26,667 nt of DNA, taken from positions 124,001-150,667 of the forward strand of contig QPGO01000174.1 of assembly GCA_008632985.1 (NCBI GenBank), in the 5' to 3' direction. This DNA is from Psammoneis japonica (Eukaryota). Numbering within the stretch: position 1 is the first letter of the stretch; each line of letters begins with the position of its first letter. Under the pieces are notes generated by a model. The model saw nothing but the letters and a program-made list of their open reading frames with translations, searched no databases and was not told the origin of the DNA. Made by a program: the position numbers and the translations under genes. Below are positions 1-19,052 of this stretch, piece by piece.

Positions 1-1097
1 CACACAAGGGCATCCAGTTGCGTCGGAGTAAAAGCAAAAAGGTCCTGATGCAAATCGGTTCCATCAATGTTGAGAGTGGAGCGCAATGGACTGTTCGCGG
101 CTTGGTTCAGAACAGTGCCTAGAATGTGCTCGAGGCCATCAATTTGTTGTTGCCTGGTGAGAACCTTGTTGCAACCAGGTGGATGTCGGAACTGGCTGGA
201 GTCGGAGGGTGAGCTTGAAACAACTTGAAACTTGACTTGAATCTTGACTTGATGTCTTGAGCTGTCTTGAGAGTCAGAAGCCGCCGGGCTGTGATGCCCC
301 ATTTGCAGTTGAGTGCCAAGCTTCCCATCTGGTCCGCAGAGTTGTGCCAGCACGTCTGAACCCACAGCTGGCGACACTTTGGGTTGCCTGAGAGCGGAGC
401 AATGGGTTAAAAACCCCTGCTGACAAGCCAGCCAGAGGTGGACAAGACCTCCAAACCGTTCTTGTTTTATGTCGGTTGGACAACCCGATCAGGCCGGCCA
501 AATTTGGCGCTGTGGAGGGATGAACAAACGTGGGAAATGCACCCTCACCCCAACACAGGCTGCGGTCATGAACTGCTTCCTCTCACAGTTGTCCTGGCAG
601 ACCTTGTGGGACTGCAGAAGACCAGCAATCCAGTGCAGACACAAGGCGGCAGACTTGGCATGTGCAGAGCAGGGCCAGAGTCAAGGGTTTGCATCGTGTG
701 CACGTGGACGCGAGCGGATGGACTGGCAGGATCCGCCACAAGGAATCCGGAATCTCAGACGTCTGAGAATTTGGGAATTCCTGGCCAAACAAATGTCCGT
801 TGAACAAACATGTCCAACGATGGGAGGTGTTGGACAAATCCAAACGTGTGGATTTGACCCAGCACCCAGCAGCGAAGAAGGTGGGCACGTGTGCTCCCAC
901 CACCAACGGCGCACATCGTCAAAAATTTCTTGATGATGACAATGAACGCTCAATGGACAACAAAGAGCAAGACTGTCAATCTGACAGAAAATGAAGATGA
1001 CTGGGTGGAAAAAAACAATGGCTCCTTGCTGCTGTCCAAATGGCAGATGAGTCTCCGTGCAGAGACCGCGGCAGGAACCGAAAGACTGGCGCCGTGA
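1..1097 (+). pseudogene. Degenerate coding remnant, unidentified, in a TpA-depleted block
   Basis: Protein-like stretches switch between + frames (438-803, 800-994, 891-1097) with scattered stops. HPHPNTGCGHELL loosely resembles the SGNH-hydrolase HP...GH block, which is not sufficient for a call. No TpA was found between 470 and 1519. Confidence 0.3.
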
Positions 1098-1314
1098 TGC
1101 CTGCACTGCTGTTGTCATTTTTGTGAGCCGAGTGGCTCAAAAGCAAACTGCATCACGTGACGCGCGCGGAACTGAGAGCACGCACAACCGTGTGTGACAA
1201 ACCAAAATCTTGCTCAAATCCTGCCAAGGCTTGGCACTTGATGCCTCGCCCTTGCGCTTGACCACGCTCATGCTCCCGGCGCCTGAGCGAGCGTGCGACC
1301 ACTGTCGCTGCTTT

Positions 1315-1640
1315 TGCACATTCTTCCATTCAACCCAACCGAAAAACAACAGCTGCAGCTCTTTGTGCACCCATGTCTTGATGGTCACAACACGCGAGCA
1401 AAATCTGCTGGCGCTTGTGGGTGTCCGGCCCGCGTGTGAAATTTTCAAAAAAATTCAGTCATCGGTCATCTTGGTTGTCCCTGCTTGCACCCAACCGAAA
1501 AATGACAGCTGCAGCTCTTTAACATGCATGTGTCTTCATGATCATAACACATGTGATTAAAACTTGCTGGCATGTGGATGTTGGCATGAAATTTTCAAAA
1601 AAATCCAGTCATCCTTTCGGTCATCTTGGTTGTCCCAGCT
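1315..1640 (+). repeat. Two diverged tandem copies (about 150-156 bp) of a dispersed repeat, with a third copy at 13936-14080
   Basis: CAACCGAAAAA..ACAGCTGCAGCTCTTT at 1336 and 1492. TGAAATTTTCAAAAAAAT(T/C)CAGTCATC...GGTCATCTTGGTTGTCC at about 1437 and 1587. Confidence 0.9.
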
Positions 1641-1891
1641 AGTTTTTCACGACCTCGCAAATGACTCTGGATGAATGAATGGCCCGACAGCTCTTTCGTA
1701 GCGCGAATCCGGGATGTGGACTTGCACAACTGTATCAACTGTGAAAGAGGACAGAGGATTCGCCGCTGTTAATACAAGCGAACAAACAGAAGAACAAAAG
1801 CACAGGGTCACACTGAAAGAATACACACGAACACGAAGTGATCAGAACAACCCATCAGGGAACAAAAGAACTGGATTCGTGAAAGCACCTG

Positions 1892-3787
1892 ATGACAGGA
1901 CGAGTAATTCGGAAGGCATTCGTGCCGTTGCTCTTCTTGGTGTACCTCTTCAGGACTTTGCATTCAGGGTTAAAGGATGTGTCTATCACCTCGCTGACAC
2001 ATTCGGTGCCGGACAAGTCTTCTTCCTTAAAAGACACCCCCCCTAAGTCTCATCCAAACCAAGAGCCTTTGTCACCCCCCATTCTAATTCAAACAGTGTC
2101 TGTGGATGCAGGAAATGTCACGCATCTTAGCATCGACCACAGATCTGGCGGCTGGGGAAACCGTGTATTTCAAGGCTTGCACGCTCTTGTGGTTCACAGA
2201 CCTGACTTGCCACCAGGACCCTGTCTTGGTGGAACCCAAGGGGCCATGTTTGGCAGCTTCCTCTGCAAGGTGGATTTGTGTCCAGAAAGCACCCCCAAAG
2301 AAAAATACACACACCTGGGTGGAGTGGCCAATCGTGATGCATGGGAGCGCATATTCCGAGAAGTATCGGCGCCCAATCCGAAAGTTCTCCCTTTCTTGGA
2401 GTTAGATCAAACTGCGGTACAAGAAGTCATCGGCACAGAGCTCATGGGAGAGCTTAATCGCACTTGCGCAGTTCACGTACGATTTGGGGACCATTATTTC
2501 CGAAGTGATAAACCCAGGTATGCTGGTGACTCAAGAATAGCAGCGTGTAAAGGCAAAACTGTACAACAGTGTTTTGGACACGTTGCCGATTGGGTGAAGA
2601 GAGCATGTTCATCTTCACATACGGTCTACGTGGCAAGCGACGTTCCAGAGTTCTCAGAATTCGTGGTGAAAGCGTCACCCGACCTGAAAGTCTTCCACGC
2701 CACTCAGGTCAGGACAAGTGTCCACATGAACGACATGGATTCATTTTCGCTCTCAGACCCGCACGCACGGGGTATAGTCATAGATTGGCTTGCGCTGGCG
2801 CTCTCTAAAGAACGACATGCTATATCCAGAAGCACGTTTTCAAGTTCAGCTGGCCTTGGTTTTTATCTCTCGAATTCGTCTTGCGAGAAAGGAGCAGAGA
2901 CATCCATTCTCCTGGGGGGAGCAGCTGCGGAGGTTGTGAAACGTGATGGAAGCTCGAACATTTGCCGCAGCAATCCCTATGTGAGCAAGCTTGAAGATTC
3001 TCTCGAGACAATCACAGAACGCATGGATGCCTGGTTGGAGCCGTTGGCTTATGAGAACACCATGATCCAAGCCAAGACCAATCCTCAATGGCGACGTAAT
3101 TGGGGCCCTTTCAATGCACATGCCGAAATGGCAAAATGTCATCCCGCCCATCGAAGATGTGTGGGAGGCCCCTGTTTTGACGATTTGAGTAAGATCACTT
3201 GTGGGTTGAGCGCCCTGGAACCTGGCTGTGTGGTGTATTCGATAGGTGGAAACAACCAGTGGCAGTTCGAACTAAGTGTCCTGGAAGACACGCCATGTGC
3301 TGTTCATACATTCGATTGCACGGGCCCCAAGCGACGGTTTGTTCCACCCAAACATGATCGTCTGCACTTCCATCATGTTTGCGTTGGAACTGAACATGAA
3401 CCACCCCCCACTGCTCCTTGTGAAGGCCAAGTGAAATGCGGAGCCACTTGGACACTGCGTGAGATGAAAGAGAATCTTGGACACGATCATGTCGATCTCT
3501 GGAAAATGGACATTGAGGGCTTTGAATGGGGCATCCTTGAATCATGGCCCGAGCTGGATGAGGAGCGTGGGGATGTTGCTTTGCCACAACAGTTGCTTGT
3601 GGAAATCCACTATGTCACCCAATTTCCAGCACTCTACAAGAACGGGTCCAGCAAGTTCAAGGATCCCGAGGACAGCGTGAAACTGCAGCGTCATCTGCTG
3701 CAGATGGGCTATGCGGTGGTTGAACGCGATGACAATGGGCGTTGCAAACACTGCACAGAGTTGACCTTGGTTCGTGTGAGATGCTGA
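1892..3787 (+). CDS. Type-II membrane protein, 631 aa: fucosyltransferase-like (GT11/GT23/NodZ-type) domain fused to a C-terminal Methyltransf_22/METTL24-like SAM methyltransferase
   Basis: Uninterrupted ORF with N-terminal signal anchor (RKAFVPLLFLVYLF). Fucosyltransferase-type motifs: GGWGNR, AVHVRFGD, VYVASD, IDWLAL...STFS. Methyltransferase motifs: CVVYSIGGNNQWQFE, VHTFDCT, VDLWKMDIEGFEW, QLLVEIH. Confidence 0.85.
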   Translation: MTGRVIRKAFVPLLFLVYLFRTLHSGLKDVSITSLTHSVPDKSSSLKDTPPKSHPNQEPLSPPILIQTVSVDAGNVTHLSIDHRSGGWGNRVFQGLHALVVHRPDLPPGPCLGGTQGAMFGSFLCKVDLCPESTPKEKYTHLGGVANRDAWERIFREVSAPNPKVLPFLELDQTAVQEVIGTELMGELNRTCAVHVRFGDHYFRSDKPRYAGDSRIAACKGKTVQQCFGHVADWVKRACSSSHTVYVASDVPEFSEFVVKASPDLKVFHATQVRTSVHMNDMDSFSLSDPHARGIVIDWLALALSKERHAISRSTFSSSAGLGFYLSNSSCEKGAETSILLGGAAAEVVKRDGSSNICRSNPYVSKLEDSLETITERMDAWLEPLAYENTMIQAKTNPQWRRNWGPFNAHAEMAKCHPAHRRCVGGPCFDDLSKITCGLSALEPGCVVYSIGGNNQWQFELSVLEDTPCAVHTFDCTGPKRRFVPPKHDRLHFHHVCVGTEHEPPPTAPCEGQVKCGATWTLREMKENLGHDHVDLWKMDIEGFEWGILESWPELDEERGDVALPQQLLVEIHYVTQFPALYKNGSSKFKDPEDSVKLQRHLLQMGYAVVERDDNGRCKHCTELTLVRVRC

Positions 3788-3888
3788 TTGCTGCAGAAAT
3801 TAACTCCTAAATGTAATACAGATGTCATCAGTCCTCCAATTCAACACATTCAAAATTTCTACTGCGTCGCCCATTTTCCTGCGCTCTG

Positions 3889-4043
3889 CAAGAATACACT
3901 CCCCTGATCAAAGCATCGGTTTTATCAAAGAAGAAAGAAGCACAAATGGTGCAAACAACAAACAACACAAGAATGCACTCCCCTGATCAAAGCATCGGTT
4001 TAATCAAAGAAGAAAGAAGCACAAATGGAGCAAACGACAAACA
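3889..4043 (+). repeat. 79-bp tandem duplication, 2 copies
   Basis: CAAGAAT(A/G)CACTCCCCTGATCAAAGCATCGGTTT...GAAGCACAAATGG at 3889 and 3968. Confidence 0.92.
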
Positions 4044-4094
4044 GTACTGTCAACAGAGGAAGACACATCCACACACAAAGCCATGCTACAGTCC

Positions 4095-4733
4095 GTGACT
4101 GGAAATTAGCAATGGACTCAATCTTTAATGGCATTATCAATGGAGTAGGTTATGGTTATATTTATCAATGGCACAACAAGTTGTCCTAAGTTGAACGTTA
4201 TGTTTTATCATTGCACAACAAGATGTCCTAAGTTGAACGCTGGTTTTGAAGTTCCATTGAACTGGAAATTAGCAATCATTAATGACAACATTGAAACTTC
4301 TCTTCACTTACACTGCCTCTGGACAGTACACAGCTTACTTTGTCCACCGTGACTATTCAATCTGCCACATTTTATAAGCCATACACTGTTCTACTTTTGC
4401 CTTAGCCCTGTGCACCCTAGTGACTGGAAATTAGCATTTGGTCTACTTTTGCCTGGACATTAGCAATGGACCCAATCATTGACGGCATTAGCAATGGAGC
4501 AGGTTATGTTTTAGCTTTGCAAAAAAAGTTGTCCTAAGTTGAACGTTGTATTTTTTTCTATTGAACTGGAAATTAGCAATTATTAATGACGACATGGCAC
4601 AGCAAGATGTCCTGAGTCGAACGCTGCTTTTTGAAATCTATAAGACGTGAAGTTAGCAATCATTAATGACAAGTTGGTTGAGCAGCTATAAGACGTGAAG
4701 TTAGCAATCATTAATGACAAGTTGGTTGAGCAG
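4095..4733 (+). repeat. Complex of diverged short repeats ending in an exact 48-bp tandem pair
   Basis: CTGGAAATTAGCA and TGTCCT(A/G)AGT(T/C)GAACG units recur. CTATAAGACGTGAAG...GGTTGAGCAG is identical at 4638-4685 and 4686-4733. Confidence 0.88.
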
Positions 4734-5667
4734 AGATCAATTTTCTGAGCAGCAAAAGAACATGTGATTCAGCGTGGTTCCCCGACTGTTCACCATTCTG
4801 GAAAATAGGAAAACAAAACGCATTTTTGACAGCATGAAGTGTCATGTTTAATGTTGTTTGACAGCTTTTTTTTTCTGCAACCACTAAGATGCAAAATTGA
4901 AGCAACTTTAAAATGGTGCAAAGTGCCAAATAACAAAATTAAATAAATACCAAAACTAGACTATGCTGTTCAAGCTTTTTTGACCTCTACAATTTTGACA
5001 GCGTGCACCTTCAAAACTCGGGGATACAGCATTGTCAATGAAGACGCGGCACAGTGCATTTTTAGCGCGGGGAAAAGAAAAGAGTTGCCTCAACGCACGG
5101 ATGTTGTGCACGAAAATTAGGTGTGAGCATATCAAAGCCAAAAACATGCGCATTAGAAACAAATCTTTGCAGCTTTCACAACATTCCACGCGCCATTGGT
5201 TTTTCTGGAGCTCCAAATAAAAGCATCTTCTTTAACCATTGAAATGACTATGAGTACATTTTGTATTTAATTTTGACTCTTTACGTGTTCAAAGCATGTA
5301 GTCATTATTAAAAGATATATTTCTGACATTATTAATTTCGTATTGAAGTACGTCCAAATTAAATGCGAAGCGACAGTGCTTAGTTTGGGCCGGTAGACAC
5401 ATCAGATGTAGATGCCGGATCATGTCACTGCTGTCGAACAGTAGTGTTAGGACCTAATTGATCCTACGGAATCGGAACAGAAGTTAAACATTATGGTCTA
5501 TCTATCGCCAGTTCGAGCCAACATTTAGGGGAATGAACAAGGAGGCTAGTGTCCACATCTTAAGTGATAAATAATCTGAGACGAATGTAGAGCAACAAAA
5601 GACAATAGCAAGCTATTACATCTTTACCCAGCAACAACGGCTCCCACAAACCACACCTCCAATACAC

Positions 5668-5897
5668 TCAACGAGGAATGCAACTGGTTAAATGAAATTG
5701 CACAAGAAGGAGGTTATCGCTATCTTTTGGAATGGTTACAAAGTATACACACCATGACAGCAAAGGATAATCATGTTCAAAATCAACGAGGAATGCAACT
5801 GGTTAAATGAAATTGCACAAGAAGGAGGTTATCGCTATCTTTTGGAATGGTTACAAAGTATACACACCATGACAGCAAAGGATAATCATGTTCAAAA
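5668..5897 (+). repeat. Exact 115-bp tandem duplication
   Basis: TCAACGAGGAATGC...ATCATGTTCAAAA at 5668-5782 and 5783-5897, with no mismatch seen. Confidence 0.93.
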
Positions 5898-6353
5898 GAA
5901 GTTGAAAAGCACATAACAGTTAGATTATAGTTTTCATTGAATACAAAAAATACACACGTTCGGGAGGAAACGGTTAAGTCATTCTGCGTGCCAACACAAC
6001 ACGCATTTGTTTGACAGCATGAAGTGATTCATTCCACGCGTCAAACAGATTGCTACACTCCGCACACCATATGGATTGGTTTTATCCTTGTGCCCAGCCG
6101 TGTCCCAGAGCCGGTAAAAAAAAATTTCAAAAGAGATATCTTTGAAAAAGATAGCGATTTCGTTGTGAAACATAACAAACGCCAGAAAAAGCCTGAGATG
6201 GACAACCAAGCAAAATAAAAAAACACGTTTTTAACAGCATTCAGTCATGACCAAGCAAGCATGAAGTCCTGTTGACAGAAGCACTGTTTCACTGTTTACC
6301 TTTTTTCCGTACCCACGCAGTTGCCACATTAACGCAAAAATTTAATTGAGTAA

Positions 6354-7124
6354 GAGCATCTTCGCCAGTGAGTCGTAAACATAAACATAAACATAGGAAC
6401 ATAACCTAAAAGGACAAGCGAACAGACTGCCCGTATAAGTTACGATCTGCACGCGACCATCATTTTCAGTCGATCACAATCGTATCCATACACGTATATC
6501 AATAACTAACTGATGGTAGGACGACTTGTTGAATTTTACATGACGCCATGCGGCTTTGAACGCAATATACGACACAAATCACCGTCTATTCAAAGATATG
6601 TCGACGTCTATCAATAGAGAATAATTCATATTATATGTCTATGTGTTACTATGTTGTGAAAGTCATTCTACATCGCGAAAACAAGCGAAATGTTATCACA
6701 CGATTTATGCCTTATTCTCTTCTGACCCCATAAACCCCCCATATGTCGGTTCTCCTCCCATATCTCGATGCGGCCGTATGTAAGTTCATAAGATACGACA
6801 AAGTCTTAATTGTTGGGCCTCTGTAAGGTCCTCTCATCAAGAAAGCGTCGATTGTCGTTTCGTCATGGTGACACGCACTTTCTACAGGATTTCTACACCC
6901 TTTTTGTACCAGAAATTTACGATTTTCGTTTACGATTTTGGAGGTGGATCGTATCCAAGGCCTGATTTGCGATTCACTTTCATGAATCGTAAATTCGAAA
7001 AGGGTTATTAGCGCAAAAAATATGTTTACGATCCACCGAAAATGATGATTTTTTGTGAATCTCATTCGTATCGGAAGACGTACGGACATAGGTTTATGTT
7101 TACGACTCACTGGCGAAGATGCTC
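6354..7124. mobile_element. PIF/Harbinger (Tourist-like) non-autonomous element (MITE), 771 bp
   Basis: Perfect 33-bp terminal inverted repeats GAGCATCTTCGCCAGTGAGTCGTAAACATAAAC (6354-6386 and 7092-7124), flanked by TAA target-site duplication (6351-6353, 7125-7127). Interior is AT-rich with no credible transposase. Confidence 0.9.
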
Positions 7125-9539
7125 TAAAATACCAAAAATAAATAACAAAAATTTTCTATTTAAAAAATTTTGGCGTTTTCGACCCCTTCAATTTTGACCA
7201 ATGGCATTGCAAGCCCTCGGACAGATTTTGAACCTGAGGTGTGGACAACCGCAAAGAGATATGTGGAAAACACATCCGAGTGTCTAATCTTAATGTCTAT
7301 TGGCCGAAATATGGCTCTGAGATTGTTCTATTGGCCGAAATATGTTGAACTAAGTCATTCTATATTGTCCCGCGGTGCGGAAAAAGTTACAGGGTGGCTC
7401 TGAGATTCTTCATTGTCCTGACTTAGACATTTCGGACATAATGTTGCTTCCCTTCCAGACTCCTGTTTTATTCGCTGTGGCATGAATCTCTCCTGCGTGT
7501 GGTCGTTCGGAGAGTGAAACAATTCAAATTAAATCAGTAAGTTCCCATAAACTGTTGATCTTGATTCCTCTTGTGGCTGTTTTCCAAGCTATAATTAACA
7601 TGCCTTGCTTGTTGACAATCATCACGCTAATTTGGTCAGTCACACCAGTTAAGAACCGAGTTATCCTGCTGTGATTTTCAACAATTCACTTACGGAAAAA
7701 GAATGTTTCGGGAGGGGAAACATGAGAAATTTTCGACCCCTGATAAAGCATCGCTCTTCATTTTTAAAGCATATTTGGAATAACGCCTTGGTGTTGCACA
7801 CTATGTCAAAGCAAGTTGTTGTTGTCTTTTGCATTGTCATAATTCTACGGCAGCTACCCACCAATAACACCTACGTGTGTTTCTACGTGCGCTCCCTTAC
7901 TGATGTCGCATTTCGCTGGGTCTCCCAAGACCATTCTGGCCATTTCAACCAATGTCACACCCTTATTTCAGCATGATAATCAATGTTTCTCGGTGAAAAA
8001 GACTGGCGTCGATTCCTTATGGTTCGTATGCTCGTTGATTTTTTTCGTATTGTTTCTGCAGACTCAAGAAATTTTCTACACGGATTCTAGTACAAATTCT
8101 ACGCGCGACAGCAACAACCACCGACGACTGCTGTATCAACGCTCCGAACTACTTACGCCCATACCCATCGGTCCTCAATAACCTTCTTTATCTCCATCTG
8201 CCAATCAAGTGCTTCACTCTATTTGGTGAAAGTACCTCCTCTGTTGCGGCGCTGACGATCCAGTATGGTTTCTACACGAGACAATTGTTTTTTCAGATTC
8301 ATATCTACAAGACCTGTGCTACCTTACTTCTATCTACTGGCTAATCAAGCTCACTACCCTGAGTGGTGATCTTACTGTTCTCGCTACGATTCCTCGAGGT
8401 GTGCAAATAAGATGCCTCATGATGTAACCAACGTGTGCATCACCAGCAAGACTGCAGAAAACTCCAAGTGTTGTGTTCTCTGTTTCAACTGTTTCCGTCG
8501 GGCGTCTCATTCTGGAGGCGCCGAATCCGGCTAATCGCATGGTAGGGTGTAATGAAAGTGTGGGTTAGCCGGCGTCGGTGTTGCTGGGCAAAAGCGTAAT
8601 AGCACTTAAAATTAGGTTTGGGTTTTTTGTCTTTTGCATTGTCATTTTTTGTTAATCACTAGATTGAGAATAGTGCTTCTTTAACATAAACTAGAGAGCA
8701 TCTGCTGAGCATCTTTGTGCTTCTTGTCTTAGCATCGTCTACCTCGACATCTCCCTCACTATGACTTACTTGTGATTTCGTACTGGAAAGTATGATTGTT
8801 GACGGGAAAAACACGTGCTTGTCGCTATGGCACACAAAGCGTTAAGTTCACTTGAAATTTACAAAAAAGTTTTTGTCCTTTAATTTGTGATGAAGAAATT
8901 CCCAATCAAACCTGACAATTCTATTTTGGACGGAAGAGAGGCCGAAAATAGTCTTTTTGTTTCTCTTCTCTTTTGCGCTGCCTTGAGTGACGTTTGTTTA
9001 TGTCAGGATATTTAGGAAACATGAGACCACAAACGGGTCCCTGCTGCTTGGAATCCCTCATTCTGAATTCTTTACACCATCATGCCCAGCATGTCCATTA
9101 TTTGCAGCTGCACCCCGTTCTTGTTGTATGTCGTTCCCATGACAAACATCTACATCATACAGTCATGATTGACATTTTACAGCATCATGCAGAAGTGAGC
9201 ACAATGCCATGCAAGAGAGTGAGTGGAGCCAATAACTTTGCAGGAACTCAGTTGAAATGTCATCTGAACAAAGGCGGGTTTACTACCTTCGTGAGTTAAA
9301 AACAAGCTTAGCGTGGAGTTCATCTCGTGTTCCCTTGGTGGCGAGGGCACTGGAAAGGGGAAAGTGATAGGGAATTGCTTGAATCTTGTTGTTCGGGGTA
9401 AGGCAATGACTGAAAAGGTCAAGTTGTTACAAGAATTTGTTGAAGGCTCAGTGTCGGCCAGCAACAGGAGCGGCAACATCGGGGGCTTTCTGAACTTTGA
9501 CAGAGACGTTCTTGACACCACCGAGTTTGACAGTTTCGA

Positions 9540-10730
9540 ACTCGGCGTTTTCGGAAACGAGTTTCTCAGAGGTGGAGCTTGCGAAAAATGTGCTGTTGCG
9601 CTAGGCTATGTCGTTCGGTGCCATGTATCAGAGGCGGAGCTTGCGGAAAATGTGCTGTTGCGCCTTATGTCGTTCGGTGCCATGTAAAAGTGGGTTCTGG
9701 CGCGTTTCATTGCACGATCGGGTGTGAATATGATCAAATGCCACAGACCTTCTTTAATTGATTGAAACCGATGTTCTGATGTGACCAAAATAATGAAAAA
9801 TGCTATGAGCTAAAAAACATGCACGATGTCCTGATATTAGCAAAATAATGAAAAAATGCCAAGAGCTAAAAAACATGTAAGACCTGCTGAATGTTTGGGA
9901 GCATCATAAATCGACAGTCGGACACATTACTCGGTATTTTCGAAATCAAGTTTCTCAGAGGTGGAGATTGCGGCAAAAGTGCTGTTGCACGCATGTCGTT
10001 CGGTGCCATGTAAAAATGGGTTCTAGAGTTCGTTTTTTGTGCGCGATCGGGTGTGAATATGAACAATTTTTGCATTCAAAAATACTCCTTGATCAAATAA
10101 TGCCCTTCGTTGTGTCATGCGATAGACTGTTCGGCAAGGAAGCTAAGGCAATGCTCCGCAAGATAGCGTCGAAACTATCAGATAAGTGGCAAAAGCCATA
10201 TTCTGAAGTATGCGGCTATGTCAATGCGAGGATGAGTATATACCATAGTTCGGGCAACCCACCGTTGCCTCAGGGGATCCCGTATTCCCGCTTCTCAGAT
10301 CAGCTCCAGGCGACCCCAGTGGGGAGATGGCGCAGCTCTGTCCCTTTACAAACACTAAAAGGACCCCGATTCAATCGACCTCCACCCACCCGGACAGTAT
10401 ACCAACCGACTATCCACAGAGACTTTGATAATACGCCTAGAGAAGACAACAAAAACCTGCCATCATACTGAACACGGCGCCAGAATCAATTCGAATTTCG
10501 CGCGCACAGCCTACGAAATTGCGAAGGACCTACCCCTTATTCGTACGACTGCATTAACTATAATATCCACTTTCTTTTCTAATAATGCCACGGGACCCCC
10601 TTTAATTGAAACCGATGTCCTGAGATGAGCAAAATAATGACAAAAATGCCGACAAAAATGCCAAGAGCTAAAAAACATGCAAGCAAGACCTGCTGAATGT
10701 TTGGGAGCGTCATGATTCGACAGTAGTCGG
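9540..10730 (+). repeat. Two diverged copies of a roughly 390-bp unit with internal sub-duplications; copy 2 is interrupted by a retrotransposon
   Basis: ACTCGG..TTTTCG...GTTTCTCAGAGGTGGAG starts at 9540 and 9929. ATGTCGTTCGGTGCCATGTA occurs three times. GAGCTAAAAAACATG...AAGACCTGCTGAATGTTTGGGAGC at about 9863-9902 and 10665-10708. Confidence 0.88.
10105..10580 (+). mobile_element. 5'-truncated non-LTR retrotransposon (restriction-like endonuclease type, CRE-like C-terminus plus 3' UTR)
   Basis: Reads PFVVSCDRLFGKEAKAMLRKIASKLSDKWQKPYSEVCGYVNARMSI, then a 1-nt frameshift, then IVRATHRCLRGSRIP...WGDGAALSLYKH* (stop 10356-10358). This matches the typical RLE-element C-terminus. Flanked by direct repeat AATAATGCC at 10096-10104 and 10581-10589. 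Confidence 0.85.
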
Positions 10731-10967
10731 TCGAGGGCAAAGCCTCGGTTGGAAGGAGATGCACAGCTTCTGTGACCACGGTCCGAGCAGTGTCACGGGG
10801 TCAGGATCTGCCCAATGTGTAACTTTAATTAATTCTCCGTTTTGGTCCCCACGCACAAAGTTGGGTGCAAAAAGCAACCAGTGCTTGAGGCCTTGTTTGT
10901 TGACAGGATAGGGAGGTGGTGAAGTGACAGCTGGGTAAAAAATGCAGTTGTCAGTCCTATTATGGTT

Positions 10968-11057
10968 ACCTAGAGTGACCCCAAAAGGAGCTCATAGACC
11001 CGAGTGACCTCAGAGCCAGGGCGGATCGGTGTTGCGGCTAGCCCAAAGTAGCTTCAT
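10968..11057 (-). repeat. Duplicate of the last roughly 115 nt of the adjacent CDS, with a 29-nt internal deletion
   Basis: Matches 11068-11183 (GTGACCCCAAAGGAGCTCATAGACCCGAGTGACCTCAGAGCCAGGGC...GGATCGGTGTT.CGGCTAGCCCAAAGTAGCTTCAT). Confidence 0.92.
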
Positions 11058-11069
11058 GGTTAAGAGAAC

Positions 11070-13767
11070 CTAGTGACCCCAAAGGAGCTCATAGACCCGA
11101 GTGACCTCAGAGCCAGGGCTAAGCTGCTTGCGTGTCTCCTTGTTGACGGGATCGGTGTTTCGGCTAGCCCAAAGTAGCTTCATAGGAATACCACTAAGGA
11201 AGTGGTAAAAGTACTCATGAAAGCCATGCTTCTGCCACATGTGCACCTCAGCCGAAAAATATTTGACCTTGTCAAAAACACTGGAAGAGATCAAAGAACC
11301 CAAGAGCTCCCATTCTGCGCCCTCAACATCAAGTCGAAGCACATCAATTTTCTCATCCCCGTGTTCCTTCATCAGACTTTTCAAAGTCCGGACATTGTAG
11401 TTGGCGGCCTTGTTGTAAAGTGTCGTCTCGCCTTGATGCGCACCATCGTTAGGGCCAATGCCAATGGAGTAGAACCAGTGATTCTTACCTCGCTGGTAGG
11501 TCTTATATCCGTTTGATGGGTCAAAGGAGTAAACCGTGCAGCCATACTCATGAAAGAAATCATCAAAATCCCATTGATCGGCAATGCCAAAGGAGTACAC
11601 TGTGCAGTTGCCGGGAATGATGTCATCGAGACAGTACCATCTGGTGACAATCTTCTCGACGAATTCCTTTGTGTTCTGGCATGTTGGTTTTTTGGCTGTC
11701 TCCAAAAATGCTTTCATGTAATTGGTCGTGTTGACAGCAACGGTGGCAGACTTGGTTGCTAGGTTCTTGTCTAGTCGAAGAGAGAACCCGGCACGAAAAT
11801 TTTCAAACACAACCATGTCACCAGCCTTTGATCCTGGGGGGACGGTACAGTCAACAGCCAGACTCTTTTTCAAGCGGTTTTGGTGGACTTGATCAGTGAG
11901 CTCCACAGAATTTGAGTAGTTTCTGAATACAAAACTGTGGTAAAGATTGTATTCTGAGAATGCGTATTCGTGACCGTTGCGTGTGTACGGTGAGGGTTGA
12001 TCATGCGGAATGTTTGAGATTATGGTCTTGCTGCATTGAACCACATCGTTACGGTCTGTCAAAGAGTTGCCGGGACAAAGCACACCCAGTAGTCCATCGA
12101 GTTTGGCTGTTGTCATGCCAGCAAAGTGTGACACAGTGTCTTTACGGGGACTGGAATACCCTAAAAGTCCCGCAGTGGTGATGTGGTAGATGTTCTTGCT
12201 GGCGTGCGGCGCCGAAGTCGCAATCACCACCTTGCCCTCTTGCGTGATCAGATCAAATGGCGCCGTTAGTACCAAGTCAGCATCCCACAGGGCAAACGTG
12301 GAGGAGAGGGAAGGGCCAAGTAGTTTGTAAGCAAAAAGCTTGACAAATTGCTGGAGGTACCACCCAGCCCGGTCACCGAGCTTGGTCCAAGGATCACCCT
12401 TGGCTGCAAAAAGCGTTTGGAAATCCAAGTTGGTTAAAGGAACAACGTCTTGCTCGGAGTGACAGGCCGTCAACCCTGCCAAAACGTCGTCTGCGAAAAC
12501 ATTACGACACGTTGGGACAAGATGACGGGGTAGGATAAGATGGATGTTGCGGGGAGGAGGGTTGAGGTATTTCCGGAGATTCGTCGCAGTCCTTTCGGTT
12601 GCACAGTTGATTGCTCCGGCAACGATAACTACATCCATTTCAGCTGGTGGGTCCCTTTTCTTTTCTTCCTTGGCAACCATACACGCCTTTTGCTTCTCCA
12701 GTTTCAGAAACTGTTCGGCCTCGTTGCTTGTGTCTTTGTCATACATGTGACTGCCGAGGCGCCCACCCTGCGTTCGCATAAAATAGTTTCCAAAGATTTT
12801 ACCTTCAAGAGGAAGAGGCGTCAAACCAAAACGGTAGAGCGTATAGCACCACAGTGGCTGGTCTCGCCACGAATCCTGTTCTTGTTTGTATCGATCCCAA
12901 AAAAAATCCGATGCCTTTTGAAAATTAGGATTTGTGGGGTTGTAACCTACACAACGAAGCGAAAACAAAACTTCGAAAGTTAGCACTGTGGGAGAACGGC
13001 ACCACATTGCTGTCGCAGTTTCTCATATTGTACACACCAAAGAATGTATTCTGATAGAGCTGGCACCCCCAATCGAAGTCGGGCTGTTTCTCCAACCAGT
13101 TCTTGGTGGCGTCAATGTTTGACTGAATGTCCTTTTTGTATTCAACAATTTTGCGAAGCTCCTGTGCTAAAGGCCAGATGTGCTTTCTCTGAGCTAGTCC
13201 AGCATCACTTTGAAGGATTTTGTGACTTTGCTCCTGGAAATCTTGAACTGATCCTTTTGGCCCAATCACACCATCTATGTAAAAGACAACCGGGCAGTGC
13301 TTCTGTATCTCATAATCCTTCCACGCCTGAAACTTTGCGTATCGCGACTCGGTAATCATGCGCCTAAATCCAGTGTCGAAATACAGCACCTTGCTCCATC
13401 CGGGTGTTTTCAAATCGACCAAATTTGTATACAAGAAAAAGGCGTAATTCGGGTATCTGACTTTCCAGCTCGACGCATTGAGTGGCTTGTCGGACTGCTC
13501 CGAAGACAAACCAAAGATGCTGGAGATAAAGCACCCATCATAGGGTTTTTCAGGAGCTGGGTCCGTGAAAATTACTGTAGCATGCGGTTCCTCATGACAG
13601 AACAGACGCTCTTCGTTGGATTTGGGGGGATCTTTAGGCTGCACAAACGCCAGTTCCAGCTGCGACGAGGTAAGCCAGGCATCCCAGAACGCAGTCTTTA
13701 AAAGCGCGATGAGATGCATGACGACGAGCAAAGGCAAAATCGCCTTTCGAACTCCTCTGCCTGCCAT
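11070..13767 (-). CDS. Two-exon type-II membrane protein, about 868 aa: DUF616/TOD1-MUCI70-like glycosyltransferase domain, a second GT-A-like (DUF6492-like) domain, and a Methyltransf_22/METTL24-like methyltransferase. Exons 13767-13038 and 12946-11070
   Basis: ATG at 13767 gives signal anchor RKAILPLLVVMHLIALL. Splicing joins QNTFF-G-YNPTNP in frame. Domain 1 motifs: SRYAKF, FYIDG, SWRDQPLW. Domain 2 motifs: GWYLQQFVKL, LWDADL, FSEYNLY. Methyltransferase motifs: CTVYSFGIADQWDFD, YSFDPS, IDVLRLDVEGAEW, AEVH. Confidence 0.85.
12947..13037 (-). other. 91-nt spliceosomal intron, phase 1
   Basis: Donor GTGTGT at 13037, branch TGCTAAC at 12985-12979, pyrimidine-rich tract, acceptor TAG ending at 12947. 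Removal fuses the two ORFs in frame. Confidence 0.9.
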
Positions 13768-13935
13768 GTTAATTTTTCTTCTCAAATTAAGGGTTGCTTC
13801 TTTTGTGGAAGGATCAGTAATGCTTTCGATCAAGCAGTGTTCTTTGTCACAAAGCTAAAGCACAAAGCCTTGTTGTTTTTGCTGCCCCTCCCGTCTCACG
13901 CAGACACTGATGCGGCATGCGCACAATGCGAGGGG

Positions 13936-14080
13936 AGTACACTTTTCCGTTTAAACACAACGGAAAAATAACATCTTCGTCTCTTTGAAATCATTTTTTA
14001 ATGAAAAATCTACTGACTTGTTGATGTCTATGATGCGTGAAACTTCCAAAAAATTCAGTCATTTTTTCGGTCATCCTTGG
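13936..14080 (+). repeat. Third, TpA-retaining copy of the 1315-1640 repeat, between two divergently oriented genes
   Basis: CAACGGAAAAATAACATC..CTCTTTG, AAAATCTACTG and TGAAACTTCCAAAAAATTCAGTCATTTTTTCGGTCATCCTTGG align colinearly with the copies at 1336-1480 and 1492-1640. Confidence 0.8.
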
Positions 14081-14201
14081 GTCATCAGTCATCAGCAGTT
14101 CCCCCAGTGTGTCGCAGCTCGAGCACGGTCACTTCCAACTCCAAACTTCTCCAACCAGCGTTGAGCAGCTCCTCATTCGACTCTCGCTGTTTGATGTCAT
14201 C

Positions 14202-15194
14202 ATGGCATGGAAAGAAAGTTCTCTTGGGAAGAGCAACAAGTTCAAGTTGTCGTTGCTCGTGGCTGCAATCTTTCTGCTTGCCAGCACAACTCTCTCGTTC
14301 GTGGCTCCAACGGTTTGCGCCGCTGGGGCAGAGAAGACTGACAACACCACACCGCCGCCAAGCATTCAGGGATTCCCTAAAATGGCAATCATCAAACCAG
14401 AGTCTTGTGACAAGGCAGGATGAAAAGGCGTTCTTGGATTGGCGCATGACAGAGGCACATGGGTGCGCGGCCCTGGAGGAAAAATCTTGGGCAGCGCCGA
14501 GACCCATTGCTCACAGGCTCGCCAGCTGCCCAGAGAGTGAAAGTCACCTTCTGGGTGTGGCAGTGATCTTGGATGTGCCACAGAGGCGCTCATCTTTGCA
14601 GCTTCCAAAAGAAAGCACTCTGAAACATCGAGTCTCCGCTGCAGTGGTCGACACGCCGAGCGGCAGTGTCAACTGGATCTTTGAACCATGCGCGACTGGC
14701 TCTCTGAAATTTGGCAATTTCACTGTGCAACCATAGATTTTGACACCATTCCAACAAACTTTTTGCACTGTGGGATGGAGGAGCCACTTGTCCCATTGTC
14801 CCTTGTGGCAGCATGTGCTTGCAGATGGCAGCAATGCAAAGAGCCTGCAGCCACAGCCCTTTGACCTTGTTCGCACCCACGATGTCATTCAGCACATGCC
14901 CCTTGAAACTGGAGTGCAGTTTGTCTGCAATGCAGTCATGCTGGGGGCAAAGTGCCAGGTGGCCACCACACACAAAACAAAAGCTCCAAACAAAAACATT
15001 GCTCTTGGAGATTGGTGTGCAAAAACGACCTGCTGAAGCCACCCTTCAATCTCCCCAATGCAACAAATTGCATCCCGACTCATCCAGATGTGGAAAAGGA
15101 CTGGACTTGTCTCTGCCATTTGCAGCCAGCAACAGCCATCAACGAGTGGCTTTCAAAAAACCCTTGGTGTCACTCACCATTTGAGGAACAATGA
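14202..15194 (+). pseudogene. Pseudogene of a type-II membrane class I SAM-dependent methyltransferase
   Basis: ATG at 14202 and a TM segment (LSLLVAAIFLLA). Across stops and frameshifts it reads KSPSGCGSDLGCAT, VVDTPSGSVNWI, HHSNKLFALWDG, FDLVRTHDVIQHMPL, NAVMLGAKCQVATTH, NKNIALGDWC, NDLLKPPFNLP. This is the motif order of a methyltransferase family I recall as SGxGS...DxPCGDxNW...RDxxQH...PFNxP. Confidence 0.75.
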
Positions 15195-15369
15195 ACAGAT
15201 CCAGCCAGGGGTGCGGTGGGTTAAAGTTGCACATTGGGCGCTTGCCCTCACCCCACTTTTTTCCTGGATTTGCCAATTGCTCTCTGTGCAAAACACGCCA
15301 TTGTGCAAAACGACTGCCAGTCTGCTGGCTGTCACCCGCTGCAGCACAGCTGTTTTGGCATCAGTCTTT

Positions 15370-16040
15370 GCACCTTTCCTGGGCAACTGCCACTTCGAGC
15401 TGCTTTCGCTTTCTTTGCTTCTTCTGTGACTTCTTCTGAAGCTCATTGCCGGGCCCCCGGAGGTGGGCATTTTCACATGTGGGTTCAAACGAGCCCTGCG
15501 GACCAAAAGTGGATCCTTGCCTTTGACGTCTTGGCTCTTCTTTGTTTCCTCTGATGACACAATCTCTTGTGTTGCAGCAAATGGAGCACAAACTGGTTGT
15601 CATGACTCTGCCCCTCCCCTTGGTCCACAAGCTTTGGCTGGGTGCAGCAGGTCGATTCGACAAAGTCGAGCTTCCTCTTAGCGACAAAGCCAGCAACTGA
15701 CACCTTGTTGCCGCAGACACATCCGCTCTCCACCCAGCTCTCAAGAAGTTCCTTGAAATGCTCTTGATTTGGCATGCTCCCTTGCCAACACCATGCTTAG
15801 AATGGGTGCACCTGGGGGGCCGCAAGAATCACATGTGACAGTGGCTCGAACCTCAGATGCCATGAACAATTGTCGGTGTGCCCTGTTGGTCTCCGTTGCT
15901 TTCACATAGATTGCTTCTCTTTGGTGTCGTTTTTCGCATTTGGGAGAGATCTCTTTAGCAGCTCGTCCAGAGACAAGTCAGACTTGTTGATGTACGCTCT
16001 CATCTTTTCCGGCAACAGGAAGTGATCCTTGTTGGTAAGA
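15370..16040 (-). pseudogene. Frameshifted Cys-rich remnant resembling the C-terminal region of a DNA-transposon protein
   Basis: Stitched frames read KDHFLLPEKMRAYI...VRATVTCDSCG/PRCTHSK...ESGCVCG...VESTCC...LCSICC...GKDPLLV...PTSGG...KRKQLE. The CxxC-xPRCxY...YxCG...ExxYY...CxxC layout is one I associate with transposase C-termini. Superfamily not determined. Confidence 0.45.
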
Positions 16041-16515: not shown

Positions 16516-17601
16516 CTACACCAGGAGGCGCATTGCCTCGTCCGGACAGGTGAGCAGGGCCTTCCCCAATTCCCTCGTTCGGCCCTGGCAAGACGCCTTC
16601 TTCCTCGTGTTCAACGTCCACTCCAGCACATGCTGCTTCGCCTCCAGCCATTCATCGAGTGTCACCATGGTAGCGTTGCTGTTCATTGCCTCTGCCAGCC
16701 GCACCCACGTTGTCATCCTGGCCTTCTTCTTATTCAAGTGCTTCGCGTCCAGGTCCGGGCAGTGGTGCCTGGAGAGCAGCCCCTGGAGCCGGTCCACTTG
16801 TGTGTAATGTAGGAAGACGAGGTTTGGGAGGTTGTCCTTGACGGCCTTGTAGAGGTCGCACGTCAGTACCTCATGGTTTCCCCAACCGAGTTCTGACCTG
16901 CGGGGCACAATCACCCGCTTGACGAGGTTCGCCTCATCGACGACGCACTCCTGCGGCGAGCCATCCTCCGACGACTTCGTCGTAGGGGCGGACACGACGA
17001 CCAGGGGGTCGCGGCCATTCTCAAAGTTCTTGCAGTGCCGCGTTTCGACGACAAACCGGATCGCCGAGATGAGACGGTCCGTTTCGTGGCGGTACACGAA
17101 AACAACCAGTGAGCCGTCGGCGATTTTCGACATTGAGGAGGGCATGTGCTGCATCAGGTGGATCATAGGCTCGTCCAGCTTCACGTGCGATGCGACGACC
17201 CTCTGCGGTATGAGCGAATTCGTCAAGAACGCCATCCTGTCCCGGTCCTCTGCGACGACGTTTTTCACCTGCAGTTGCTGCGGAGGGTGACCCATGCACG
17301 ACTGCACGAAGTGCTTCAGCGTCGTCCCTGCCGCCTTGGACGGCATCGTAATGAACAGCTGCCCCCTCCTCGAGATGATCTCGTCCAACTCATCGTCGAT
17401 CGACAAGCACTGGTACAGTTGTTCGCTGCCCCGTCCTGCTCCCTGCTTTGCAACCCTCCTGCCACCAAAGCCGTCGTCCGTCGTCGACGAGAAATCCGAA
17501 TCTTAAAGAGCACCGCCGGGAGTGCTCCAGAGCCTCGCCGCGGACAAGACAACTATGACCAACATGGCGATGCGCACTCGCTTGTGTAGTCCCACCGCCA
17601 T
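16516..17601 (-). pseudogene. Sulfotransferase-like type-II membrane protein gene with one in-frame premature TAA (17505-17503)
   Basis: ATG at 17601 and a TM segment (IAMLVIVVLSAA) are in frame with ORF 17406-16516 across a single stop. FITMPSKAAGTTLKHF resembles the 5'-PSB loop, and VFVYRHETDRLISA resembles the 3'-PB motif of PAPS-dependent sulfotransferases. Confidence 0.7.
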
Positions 17602-18018
17602 TGTTCGTTGGTGGCGCTTGTCAATCTCCTTTCGGGTGGTTCCTTCGCTGCAAGCAACGTGTTTGTGTCGACATTTGACATTTGCCATGCACTGCTCTAG
17701 CTAGCAGCAGAGCACCAGCCACACGCCTTGCCTGCACGTACAGAATGTAAGTTTAATGCGGTCATTCAGCAGGTCACAAAAATGACTGGCCTCGTGTAAA
17801 GACCGACAAGGGAGATGACCTCATCACCAGTTGATGACGCAACTGAAAATCATTCCCCGCATCACCATCATTGGACGCGTTCAGTTGGCTTTTGGAAGCG
17901 AGCTGCTTTGCTCATTCTTCCAAAGAGTTTTAACAGCAAGCCAAATGGACAGTCTAAAGTGCCATCTTGTTCGGCGGAGGATGCCATCTGCCGCTGTGTG
18001 GGTGAACCTCGCAGGGCC

Positions 18019-18953: not shown

Positions 18954-19012
18954 TTCACAACAGTGCACCCTCTCCCCAAAATGCTTTTGACGAGAGGGTG
19001 CACTGTTGTGAA
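18954..19012. other. Perfect 21-bp inverted repeat (hairpin)
   Basis: TTCACAACAGTGCACCCTCTC (18954-18974) is the exact reverse complement of 18992-19012. The spacer can pair further (CAAAA/TTTTG). Confidence 0.92.
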
Positions 19013-19052
19013 TCCTGTGCATTCTACGTGAATCGGCAACTGACTGTTGGCC

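What the first reader, a model, noticed from the sequence alone, without database searches (positions are those of the whole stretch)
1336..14015. Three paralogous repeat copies show TA, CA and TG at the same aligned site
Seen: CAACGGAAAAA-TA-ACATC (13969), CAACCGAAAAA-CA-ACAGC (1347) and CAACCGAAAAA-TG-ACAGC (1503). Also AAAATC-TA-CTG (about 14011) vs AAAATC-TG-CTG (about 1406). Other pairs agree: GAA-TA-CAC (3895) vs GAA-TG-CAC (3974); GGAG-TA-GG (about 4146) vs GGAG-CA-GG (about 4500); GTCC-TA-AG vs GTCC-TG-AG (about 4612); CATG-TA-AG (about 9878) vs CATG-CA-AG (about 10680); TCA-TA-A vs TCA-TG-A (about 9907 vs 10713). Inference: an ancestral TA resolving to either CA or TG is the simplest reading and implies hits on both strands. 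An ancestral CG would need extra changes to give TA but cannot be excluded site by site.
Basis: partly seen in the sequence, partly recalled or inferred. Interest (0 to 1): 0.8.

Follow-up and report, generated by a model that had tools for sequence, protein, structure and literature searches.

The report
TpA-erasing hypermutation in a diatom-like genome
The TA/CA/TG differences between repeat copies are footprints of a process that has converted almost every TA dinucleotide to CA or TG across large stretches of this diatom-like DNA, including a dead transposon, a signature so far described only in one unrelated alga.

Summary
Taken alone, they are not more than chance. Among all repeat pairs in the window, TA/CA-type transitions (16) are no commoner than CG/TG-type ones (18).

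The headline three-copy site sits at the edge of something much larger. About 12.1 kb of the window (1-1519, 14030-15900, 17955-26667) has almost no TpA:
- TpA observed/expected is 0.10, and one run of 1,051 bp has none.
- CpA/TpG is in excess at 1.53.
- The other dinucleotides stay between 0.84 and 1.28, apart from CpG at 0.63.

The stretch 1520-14029 is normal. It holds two intact methyltransferase genes and young dispersed repeats.

Outgroups give the direction. In a frameshifted Plavaka-like transposon (19139-26667), tyrosine codons conserved in relatives are now Cys (TGY, 5) or His (CAY, 3), and none of the 8 is still Tyr. Thirty-eight related loci from other sources have ordinary TpA levels.

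The same signature (TpA to TpG/CpA in integrated foreign DNA) was reported in a 2026 preprint on Bigelowiella natans. This would be a second lineage, here run nearly to saturation. The enzyme, perhaps an adenine deaminase, is only inferred.

The parts
1333..1485 (+). Repeat copy c1 of the ~150-nt unit. It has no TA and carries CA at the headline column (1347).
   Evidence: (D12, D15)
1489..1640 (+). Repeat copy c2, in tandem with c1. It has TG at the headline column (1503). Its TAs lie only at 1520, 1545, 1558 and 1640, so the domain boundary runs through it.
13955..14090 (+). Repeat copy c3. It has TA at 13952, 13969, 13999, 14011 and 14029, then none until 14378. The other domain boundary runs through it.
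1..1519 (.). TpA-purged domain 1. It holds 4 TA in 1-468 and none in 469-1519, where 55.9 are expected from base composition.
1520..14029 (.). TpA-normal stretch holding gene A, local tandem repeats, dispersed repeats and gene B. TpA o/e is 0.64 in the non-coding 3800-11069 and 0.45 in the two genes.
1892..3787 (+). Gene A, an FkbM/Methyltransf_22-like methyltransferase. It is intact, keeps all 4 Tyr conserved in 31 homologues, and has Tyr/His/Cys content typical of its family.
5106..10747 (.). Dispersed-repeat (transposon-derived) DNA. Many extra contigs of run X1 lie on it at 80% likeness or more. TpA is normal (0.66) and CpG o/e is about 1. Bins 7276-7709 and 9446-9879 have near-baseline depth.
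11070..13833 (-). Gene B, a second methyltransferase only distantly related to A (27% identity over 121 aa). It has Tyr 4.6% and normal TpA.
14030..15900 (.). TpA-purged domain 2, with 5 TA in 1,871 bp.
17955..26667 (.). TpA-purged domain 3. TpA o/e is 0.04-0.17 in every 1-kb window from 18001 to 26000. There are TA-free runs of 657, 502 and 500 bp.
24134..26666 (-). Plavaka-like transposase pseudogene read in three frames (25734-26666, 25142-25834, 24134-25138). It is homologous to P0057 residues 393-1273. Tyr is 0.3-0.6%.
19139..24013 (+). Second, convergent gene of the same element, in several frames. 19139-23066 is homologous to the gene opposite the transposase in locus L004; 23066-24013 has no such match and is assigned only by position. 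Tyr is 0.3-1.1%, His 3.8-5.4% and Cys 2.5-7.0%.
16519..17502 (-). Gene C, an ORF of 328 aa with GC3 0.81 and intermediate TpA (12 observed against 33.8 expected). It lies between purged domains and its family is not identified.

Best explanation
A DNA-level, region-specific hypermutation process converted TpA to CpA or TpG, that is A:T to G:C transitions at TpA on either strand. It acted in parts of this diatom-like genome: a Plavaka-like transposon relic and adjoining non-genic DNA. It ran almost to saturation there. Neighbouring functional genes and younger repeat insertions were left alone.

The three repeat copies straddle the edges of purged domains. The copy outside (c3, left part) keeps TA. 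The copies inside (c1, left end of c2) resolved the same TA independently to CA and to TG.

Shown:
- the direction of change
- the dinucleotide specificity
- the strand symmetry
- the sharp domain boundaries
- the sparing of genes

Inferred:
- The chemistry is deamination of the adenine 3' of a T (read as G after replication) by an ADAT/TadA-like or other deaminase.
- Targeting is to silent, foreign-derived chromatin, as proposed for Bigelowiella natans.
For: 1. Scale. The purged 12,103 bp have TpA o/e 0.10 and CpA/TpG 1.53. The other dinucleotides stay at 0.84-1.28, with CpG at 0.63. There is no TA in 469-1519, where 55.9 are expected.

2. Thresholds. 14 of 26 non-overlapping 1-kb windows have Rho_TpA at or below 0.43. 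Eight of 26 also have Rho_CpA+TpG at or above 1.52, the cut-offs used for B. natans.

3. Direction.
- All 26 aligned relatives of the transposase have Tyr 2.0-4.0%, against 0.3% in the window ORF.
- At the 8 columns where relatives have Tyr, the window has TGY in 5 and CAY in 3.
- Pooled, relatives' Tyr goes to window C 128, H 115 and Y 64 of 714 pairs. The reverse (relative His or Cys facing window Tyr) occurs in 1 pair.

4. Not a family or lineage trait. 38 of 38 related loci from metagenomes have TpA o/e 0.39-0.72. Their lowest 1-kb value is 0.30.

5. Regional, not general.
- Gene A keeps 4 of 4 conserved Tyr and a family-typical composition.
- At codon positions 2-3 and 3-1, TA is 17/38.1 and 13/37.3 (observed/expected) in gene A and 15/30.0 and 19/50.5 in gene B.
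- In the transposon ORFs the same ratios run from 1/17.7 to 7/29.1.
- The boundaries are sharp, at 1520 and at 14029/14030.

6. Both strands. CA 1110 against TG 1180, with no heterogeneity among 300-bp bins (p 0.3).

7. Enzyme-like context. Surviving TAs have a 5' A or 3' T in only 12 of 69, where 43% is expected (p 1.3e-5). In normal DNA the figure is 261 of 541.

8. Other genomic copies. Of the 40 best-supported differences shown (298 more were not shown), 19 are window A/T against other-copy G/C. Thirteen of those 19 lie at a window TpA, against 19% expected (p 3.6e-6).

9. Precedent. De novo mutations were restricted to TpA, going to TpG/CpA, in integrated viral DNA of B. natans (preprint 10.64898/2026.01.13.699255; Results and Discussion read).
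Against: - No whole genome is held. I could not test whether purged DNA is always transposon- or virus-derived, nor how common the purge is.
- Purged segments 1-1519, 14030-15900 and 17955-19138 have no identified origin.
- Young dispersed repeats in 5106-10747 are not purged (TpA 0.66). Targeting is therefore not simply 'any repeat'.
- At those repeats most other copies share C/G where the window has T/A, in same-direction runs (10144-10292 all T>C; A>G at 8151, 8155, 8356 and 8374, with G>A at 8157 and C>T at 8358 among them). Majority rule would read that as CA/TG ancestral and TA derived in the window copy, the opposite direction. It fits my reading only if a partly purged master copy was the one that multiplied.
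- The full mutation spectrum was not measured. Only Tyr codons and dinucleotide shifts were.
- No deaminase could be looked for.
- Relatives' Tyr also faces window Phe in 131 of 714 pairs. That is not a TpA to CpA/TpG change; it is probably ordinary Tyr/Phe exchange.
Confidence: 0.8

Rival explanations
1. A chronic genome-wide mutational bias removes TpA from all neutral DNA. Genes, their promoters and UTRs keep TA through selection. Repeats in 3800-11069 look normal only because they are young. Nothing is targeted.
For: - Every purged segment is non-genic or a pseudogene.
- The two boundaries lie about 370 bp and about 175-200 bp upstream of genes A and B.
- The purged DNA also shows CpG decay (0.63 against 0.88), as older DNA would.
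- A TA-rich patch at 15907-16350 lies just downstream of gene C.
Against: - TAs that could be removed silently are not purged in genes A and B. At codon positions 2-3 and 3-1, observed/expected is 0.35-0.50, against 0.03-0.24 in the transposon ORFs.
- The non-coding stretch 3800-5100 has near-baseline depth except bin 4238-4671 (120.4 against about 59). It has TpA o/e of about 0.5-0.6.
- None of 38 related loci from other sources shows the effect.
- In B. natans the process is regional and intermittent.
Confidence: 0.13
2. A RIP-like process ran in the opposite direction, C to T at CpA, creating TA in c3 and in the window's repeat copies. CA/TG would then be ancestral.
For: - Most other genomic copies carry C/G where the window has T/A, and 13 of those 19 sites lie at a window TpA.
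- The repeat-rich stretch is AT-rich, with GC 0.38-0.45.
Against: - Outgroup polarity in the transposon is Tyr to Cys/His, never the reverse.
- Only 1 of 52 1-kb windows reaches the recalled TpA/ApT threshold of 0.89 (8001-9000, at 0.92). (CpA+TpG)/(ApC+GpT) is never at or below the recalled 1.03, ranging from 1.07 to 1.98.
- TpA o/e of the repeat stretch (0.64) equals that of unrelated relatives (0.39-0.72). It is not enriched.
- At the headline column a CA or TG ancestor needs three changes, against two for TA.
Confidence: 0.04
3. The listed TA/CA/TG differences are ordinary divergence, or CpG decay at the three-state column, and the reader found them by selective reading. Nothing special links them.
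For: - Inside repeats the CA/TA-type transition rate (0.062) equals the CG/TG-type rate (0.066). It is not clearly above YpC (0.045) or YpT (0.036).
- Transitions and transversions are about equal, 72 to 73.
- CpG is depleted in the purged domain (0.63).
Against: - This is true for the five pairs inside 3800-10750. It fails for c1-c3, which sit on the edges of TA-free DNA. At TA sites of one copy the others have CA/TG in 9 of 13 comparisons.
- A CG ancestor at the headline column needs four changes.
Confidence: 0.03

Closest known systems
TpA-specific hypermutation of integrated viral DNA in Bigelowiella natans (Mettrop et al., bioRxiv 10.64898/2026.01.13.699255; outline, Results, Discussion and searched passages read)
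   Same: - Changes are TpA to TpG or CpA only, on both strands.
- They are confined to regions and spare ordinary genes.
- The long-term signature is clusters of 1-kb windows low in TpA and high in CpA+TpG.
- Low-TpA coding sequences there are enriched in transposase and reverse-transcriptase domains.
- The B. natans giant-virus (NCLDV) target region is single-copy, and the edges I could test here are near single-copy depth too.
   Different: - The host here is diatom-like (Stramenopila), not a chlorarachniophyte. The best named protein hits are diatoms, and the preprint mentions no diatom.
- Depletion is far deeper: Rho_TpA is 0.00-0.17 over kilobases, against 0.45 for their giant-virus (NCLDV) region.
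- The identified target is a Plavaka-like DNA transposon, not a giant virus or virophage.
- No de novo mutations were observed here, only the historical footprint.
- A trinucleotide preference is seen here (ATA/TAT removed most completely). The parts of the preprint I read report none.
Repeat-induced point mutation (RIP) of ascomycete fungi (features recalled, not from a call)
   Same: It is a context-specific transition hypermutation that inactivates mobile DNA, with sharp domain edges and sparing of unique genes.
   Different: - The chemistry and direction are opposite. RIP is C to T at CpA and creates TpA; here TpA is destroyed.
- RIP indices are not met.
- The edges tested are not duplicated at 80% likeness.
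Methylation-driven CpG decay
   Same: A self-complementary YpR dinucleotide decays to CpA/TpG through hits on either strand. CpG is also lowered in the purged DNA (0.63).
   Different: It acts on CpG, by C to T. It cannot remove TpA or turn Tyr codons into His/Cys codons.
A-to-I editing by ADAR or ADAT enzymes, with a 5' U preference (as summarised in the preprint's Discussion; the 5' U of ADAT tRNA substrates is recalled)
   Same: It gives A to G with a T/U immediately 5'. It is the obvious chemical analogue.
   Different: - Those enzymes act on RNA. Here a DNA transposon and non-genic DNA carry heritable changes on both strands.
- The best-removed context here is TAT/ATA, which I recall is not among ADAT tRNA anticodon contexts.

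Membership tests
TpA-specific hypermutation of foreign DNA (B. natans type) | Changes are A to G or T to C | tested here: met
   At 8 of 8 polarised Tyr columns the window has TGY or CAY. Pooled, relatives' Tyr goes to window C 128 and H 115 of 714 pairs, and the reverse occurs once. The full spectrum was not measured.
TpA-specific hypermutation of foreign DNA (B. natans type) | Restricted to the TpA dinucleotide | tested here: met
   In the purged 12.1 kb TA is 0.10. AA is 1.28, AT 0.84, AC 0.97, AG 0.92 and GA 1.05. CA/TG rises to 1.53.
TpA-specific hypermutation of foreign DNA (B. natans type) | [quoted passage not shown] | tested here: inconclusive
   8 of 26 windows pass both cut-offs and 14 of 26 pass TpA alone. 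All 8 windows from 18001 to 26000 have Rho_TpA 0.04-0.17, but never three in a row pass both cut-offs. My formula for Rho of CpA+TpG may differ from theirs.
TpA-specific hypermutation of foreign DNA (B. natans type) | Targets DNA of viral or mobile origin | tested here: inconclusive
   19139-26667 is a Plavaka-like two-gene element. The origin of 1-1519, 14030-15900 and 17955-19138 is unknown.
TpA-specific hypermutation of foreign DNA (B. natans type) | Present-day mutation rate raised about 1000-fold in the target region | not testable with these tools
   This needs mutation-accumulation lines or pedigrees. Only one of the four differences between run X1 and the window in unique DNA is TpA to TpG (13429).
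TpA-specific hypermutation of foreign DNA (B. natans type) | ADAT2-like DNA adenine deaminase present in the host | not testable with these tools
   No genome is held for this window.
Fungal-type RIP | C to T at CpA, giving high TpA/ApT and low (CpA+TpG)/(ApC+GpT) | tested here: not met
   TpA/ApT is 0.00-0.92 and (CpA+TpG)/(ApC+GpT) is 1.07-1.98 in all 1-kb windows. The thresholds 0.89 and 1.03 are recalled.
Plavaka transposon (CACTA superfamily), for the purged element | Match to Pfam PF18759 | tested here: inconclusive
   The window ORFs and P0057 give no Pfam hit. Their homologue P0198 does (E 2.1e-7, 31 bits against a cut-off of 26.3). Protein Atlas neighbours of P0057 carry PF18759 in 34-98% of members.

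The most novel reading that the evidence does not exclude
Diatoms, and perhaps SAR algae generally, have a genome-defence system that recognises silent invading DNA and deaminates the adenine of every TpA on both strands until the dinucleotide is gone. This erases Tyr codons, TAA/TAG stops, and TATA-like and AT-rich signals. The system has its own trinucleotide preference (TAT/ATA first) and sharp chromatin-defined borders. It would be a functional mirror image of fungal RIP, with a different base, and shared by two distant algal lineages.
Probability: 0.3. Interest if true: 0.9.

Novelty: new member of a known kind. Interest (0 to 1): 0.75.

Why it matters
TpA-restricted hypermutation of foreign DNA has so far been reported only once, in a 2026 preprint on a chlorarachniophyte, and no enzyme is known. 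My five full-text searches found no other report and none for diatoms.

A second case matters for several reasons:
- It is in a diatom-like genome.
- It acts on a DNA transposon.
- It has run to near-complete loss of TpA.
- Together these suggest the process is widespread and old rather than a curiosity of one strain.
- It offers a strong, easily scanned signature (TA-free kilobases, Tyr-free open reading frames) for finding more cases and the responsible gene by comparative genomics.

It also has a practical side. Purged DNA lacks TAA and TAG, so it is full of long spurious ORFs on both strands. Its proteins escape family models. Both effects mislead annotation.

Tried and rejected
- Whole-genome search: no genome is held.
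- Earlier findings of the scan: none for this genome.
- Rfam: no family in the window. The bacterial promoter/terminator scan around the unit was uninformative.
- Sequencing runs: three DNA-type runs of one sample were found, and no RNA holder is listed. Expression is therefore untested. Run X1 may be the data the window was assembled from, so its agreement is not independent support.
- Recent gene duplication as the source of the unit: rejected. Genes A and B are only 27% identical over 121 aa, and the unit has the same orientation at both places although the genes face each other.
- Leakage of the purge into gene A: rejected.
- Tyr codons kept in frame by selection in the TA-poor ORFs: not seen. 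The few TAs left show no frame preference.
- Strand-biased sub-domains in the purged DNA: none found (chi-square p 0.3).
- Pfam on 20 window ORFs: only genes A and B matched above the curated cut-off.
- Gene B homologue search: only 6 weak hits, one named Bacillariaceae.
- Protein Atlas search for gene C: ambiguous, with phage-like and sulfotransferase-like neighbours at 0.94.
A narrower one worked.
- DNA of the Tyr-free relative P0198 could not be fetched.
- Supplementary tables of the preprint could not be seen. They may list contexts wider than the dinucleotide.
Full report
**Observation**

The window is eukaryotic nuclear DNA, and no genome is held for it. The best named relatives of its proteins are diatoms:
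- Amphora at 59% identity, plus Ditylum and Epithemia for gene A.
- A Bacillariaceae assembly for gene B.
- Bacillariophyta for the transposon family.

All seven site pairs of the finding exist. The three copies of a ~150-nt unit are c1 1333-1485, c2 1489-1640 (in tandem, 76% identical, E 1e-22) and c3 13955-14090. Pattern searches found no further copy in the window.

Taken as a class, such differences are not unusual among the window's repeats:
- The 145 mismatches in all self-alignments are 72 transitions and 73 transversions.
- The transitions split into 16 CA/TA-type, 18 CG/TG-type, 10 YpC, 12 YpT and 16 with a variable neighbour.
- Per site at risk the rates are 0.062, 0.066, 0.045 and 0.036.

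The five supporting pairs inside 3800-10750 are therefore ordinary transitions.

**What is really there**

Dinucleotide profiles show that TpA is almost absent from large parts of the window.
- There are 655 TA in 26,667 bp, but none between 469 and 1519, where 55.9 are expected from base composition.
- Further TA-free runs measure 657, 502, 500, 488 and 457 bp.
- Pooled, the purged DNA (1-1519, 14030-15900, 17955-26667; 12,103 bp) has TpA observed/expected 0.10, CpA/TpG 1.53 and CpG 0.63. All other dinucleotides lie between 0.84 and 1.28.
- The non-coding stretch 3800-11069 has TpA 0.64, CpA/TpG 1.25 and CpG 0.88. Genes A and B together have TpA 0.45.
- With the cut-offs used for Bigelowiella natans, 14 of 26 1-kb windows pass for TpA and 8 of 26 pass both criteria.

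The borders are sharp and run through the repeat copies:
- c1 has no TA.
- c2 has TA only from 1520 rightwards.
- c3 has TA only up to 14029.
- At the TA sites of one copy the other copies have CA or TG in 9 of 13 informative comparisons, CG in 1, TC in 2 and TT in 1.

**Direction**

The ORFs 25734-26666, 25142-25834 and 24134-25138 on the minus strand are one frameshifted gene. It is homologous to P0057 residues 393-1273 (37% and 32% identity).
- The family has 488 representatives.
- One member, P0198, matches Pfam Plavaka transposase (E 2.1e-7).
- Neighbours of P0057 in the Protein Atlas carry that family in 34-98% of members.
- A convergent second gene, 19139-23066 on the plus strand, has its homologue on the opposite strand of locus L004, so the two-gene layout is conserved.

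The polarity evidence:
- All 26 aligned relatives have Tyr 2.0-4.0%. The window ORF has 0.3% Tyr, 6.9% His and 3.9% Cys.
- At the 8 columns where the two nearest relatives, or at least 3 of the 5 nearest, have Tyr, the window has Cys TGY in 5, His CAY in 3 and Tyr in 0.
- Where relatives have His, the window keeps His in 7 of 10 columns and never has Tyr.
- Pooled over all tblastn pairs, relatives' Tyr (714 pairs) faces window F 131, C 128, H 115 and Y 64. Window Tyr faces a relative's His once and a Cys never.

TA is therefore ancestral, and TG and CA are derived. Both kinds occur side by side; codons 42 and 43 of the ORF are TGT and CAT.

The 38 related loci fetched from metagenomes have TpA o/e 0.39-0.72, and no 1-kb window falls below 0.30. 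The purge is therefore not a property of the element family.

One database relative, P0198, has a single Tyr in 1,127 residues and Cys where P0057 has Tyr. That points to another purged copy somewhere.

**Specificity**

CA (1110) and TG (1180) are balanced and homogeneous along the purged DNA (p 0.3), so both strands were hit equally.

The 69 surviving TAs rarely have a 5' A or 3' T. Only 12 of 69 do, against 43% expected (p 1.3e-5) and 261 of 541 in normal DNA. No ATAC/GTAT or ATAT survives. The process thus seems to prefer TAT/ATA, which looks like an enzyme's context preference.

**Regional or general?**

Gene A keeps 4 of 4 Tyr conserved in 31 homologues, and its Tyr/His/Cys content is typical of its family.

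TAs that could be lost silently are retained in genes A and B. At codon positions 2-3 and 3-1, observed/expected counts are 17/38.1, 13/37.3, 15/30.0 and 19/50.5. In the transposon ORFs the same ratios run from 1/17.7 to 7/29.1.

The non-coding DNA at 3800-5100 has near-baseline depth, apart from one bin at about twice baseline. Its TpA is about 0.5-0.6. This favours a targeted, domain-wise process over a genome-wide bias, though the latter is not excluded.

**Other genomic copies**

Contigs of run X1 were laid at 80% likeness. X1 may be the source of the assembly. Summed depth is about 59 over genes and over the repeat unit, and 180-1250 over most of 5106-10747, which indicates dispersed repeats.
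- Differences from the window are mostly transitions: A>G 80, T>C 85, C>T 51 and G>A 58, against 64 transversions.
- Only 40 of 338 places are listed. Of those, 19 are window A/T against other-copy G/C, and 13 of the 19 lie at a window TpA. The expectation is 19% (p 3.6e-6).
- Of the 9 listed changes in the opposite direction, 5 lie at CpG.

This shows the TpA-CpA/TpG axis operating among repeat copies across the genome.

It is also the main result against my reading. Most other copies share the C/G state, in same-direction runs, and majority rule would make TA derived there. I reconcile this by supposing that partly purged master copies multiplied, but I could not test it.

**Known comparators**

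Five full-text searches gave one relevant paper, the preprint 10.64898/2026.01.13.699255. I read its outline, Results and Discussion and searched its text. It reports:
- In B. natans mutation-accumulation lines, 210 of 211 and 20 of 20 new mutations in an integrated giant virus and a virophage are A>G or T>C.
- All the GC-biased ones fall on TpA.
- 124 genomic clusters are TpA-poor and CpA+TpG-rich.
- Low-TpA coding sequences are enriched in DDE and reverse-transcriptase domains.
- An ADAT2-like candidate deaminase is proposed.
- It mentions no diatom or stramenopile.

The window shows the same signature in a different lineage, on a DNA transposon, and far closer to saturation. Fungal RIP runs in the opposite chemical direction, and its indices are not met here (thresholds recalled).

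**Mechanism**

Shown: heritable, DNA-level, TpA-specific A:T to G:C change on both strands, in sharply bounded domains that spare functional genes.

Inferred: deamination of the adenine that follows a T, to inosine read as G, by a DNA-acting deaminase directed to silent foreign chromatin.

An RNA route is unlikely. The identified target is a DNA transposon, and non-genic DNA is also affected.

**Limits**

There is no genome, no expression data and no de novo mutations. The origin of three purged segments is unknown. Only part of the read-laying table is visible, and the preprint's supplements were not seen.

Noticed in passing
window 6353-7135: A 781-bp segment is bounded by 37-nt inverted repeats (6353-6389 and 7089-7125, 97% complementary). 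One contig of run X1 joins 6353 to 7135 with six other letters between. This looks like a small terminal-inverted-repeat element with an empty-site allele, but the joint has only 30 letters on its short side.
   Followed up: partly
window 5668-5897: A perfect 115-bp tandem duplication (2 copies, 100% identical). The X1 contigs listed stop at 5697 and resume at 5868.
   Followed up: no
window 14000-26667: TAA and TAG are nearly absent, so the purged DNA carries many long overlapping ORFs on both strands: 29 of the 44 ORFs of 120 aa or more lie in 14000-26667. Gene finders would over-call genes there.
   Followed up: partly
window 22631-22862: A 48-nt coding tandem repeat (3.7 copies, 76% matches) lies inside the second gene of the transposon. 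It encodes a serine/glutamate-rich 16-residue unit.
   Followed up: no
protein P0198 (unnamed JGI/IMG contig of 4684 bp): A 1,127-residue Plavaka-family ORF with a single tyrosine, and Cys where P0057 has Tyr. It is probably another TpA-purged copy, in the same or another organism. Its DNA could not be fetched.
   Followed up: partly
locus L037 (5735 bases): A metagenome contig carrying a relative of the transposase has CpG o/e 0.01 at GC 0.33. That is an almost complete loss of CpG, a different dinucleotide purge in another organism.
   Followed up: no
window 16519-17502 (-): An ORF of 328 aa has GC3 0.81, against 0.51-0.53 in genes A and B. It lies between two purged domains. It has no Pfam family, and its Protein Atlas neighbours are phage-like and sulfotransferase-like. 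It may itself be of foreign origin.
   Followed up: partly
window 18954-19012 and 22684-22848: Imperfect palindromes of 59 nt (88%) and 165 nt (73%) lie in the purged transposon region.
   Followed up: no
window 13429 and 11658: The two differences between the X1 contig and the window in gene B are A>G at a TpA and G>A at a CpG. These are the two context-dependent changes seen elsewhere.
   Followed up: no
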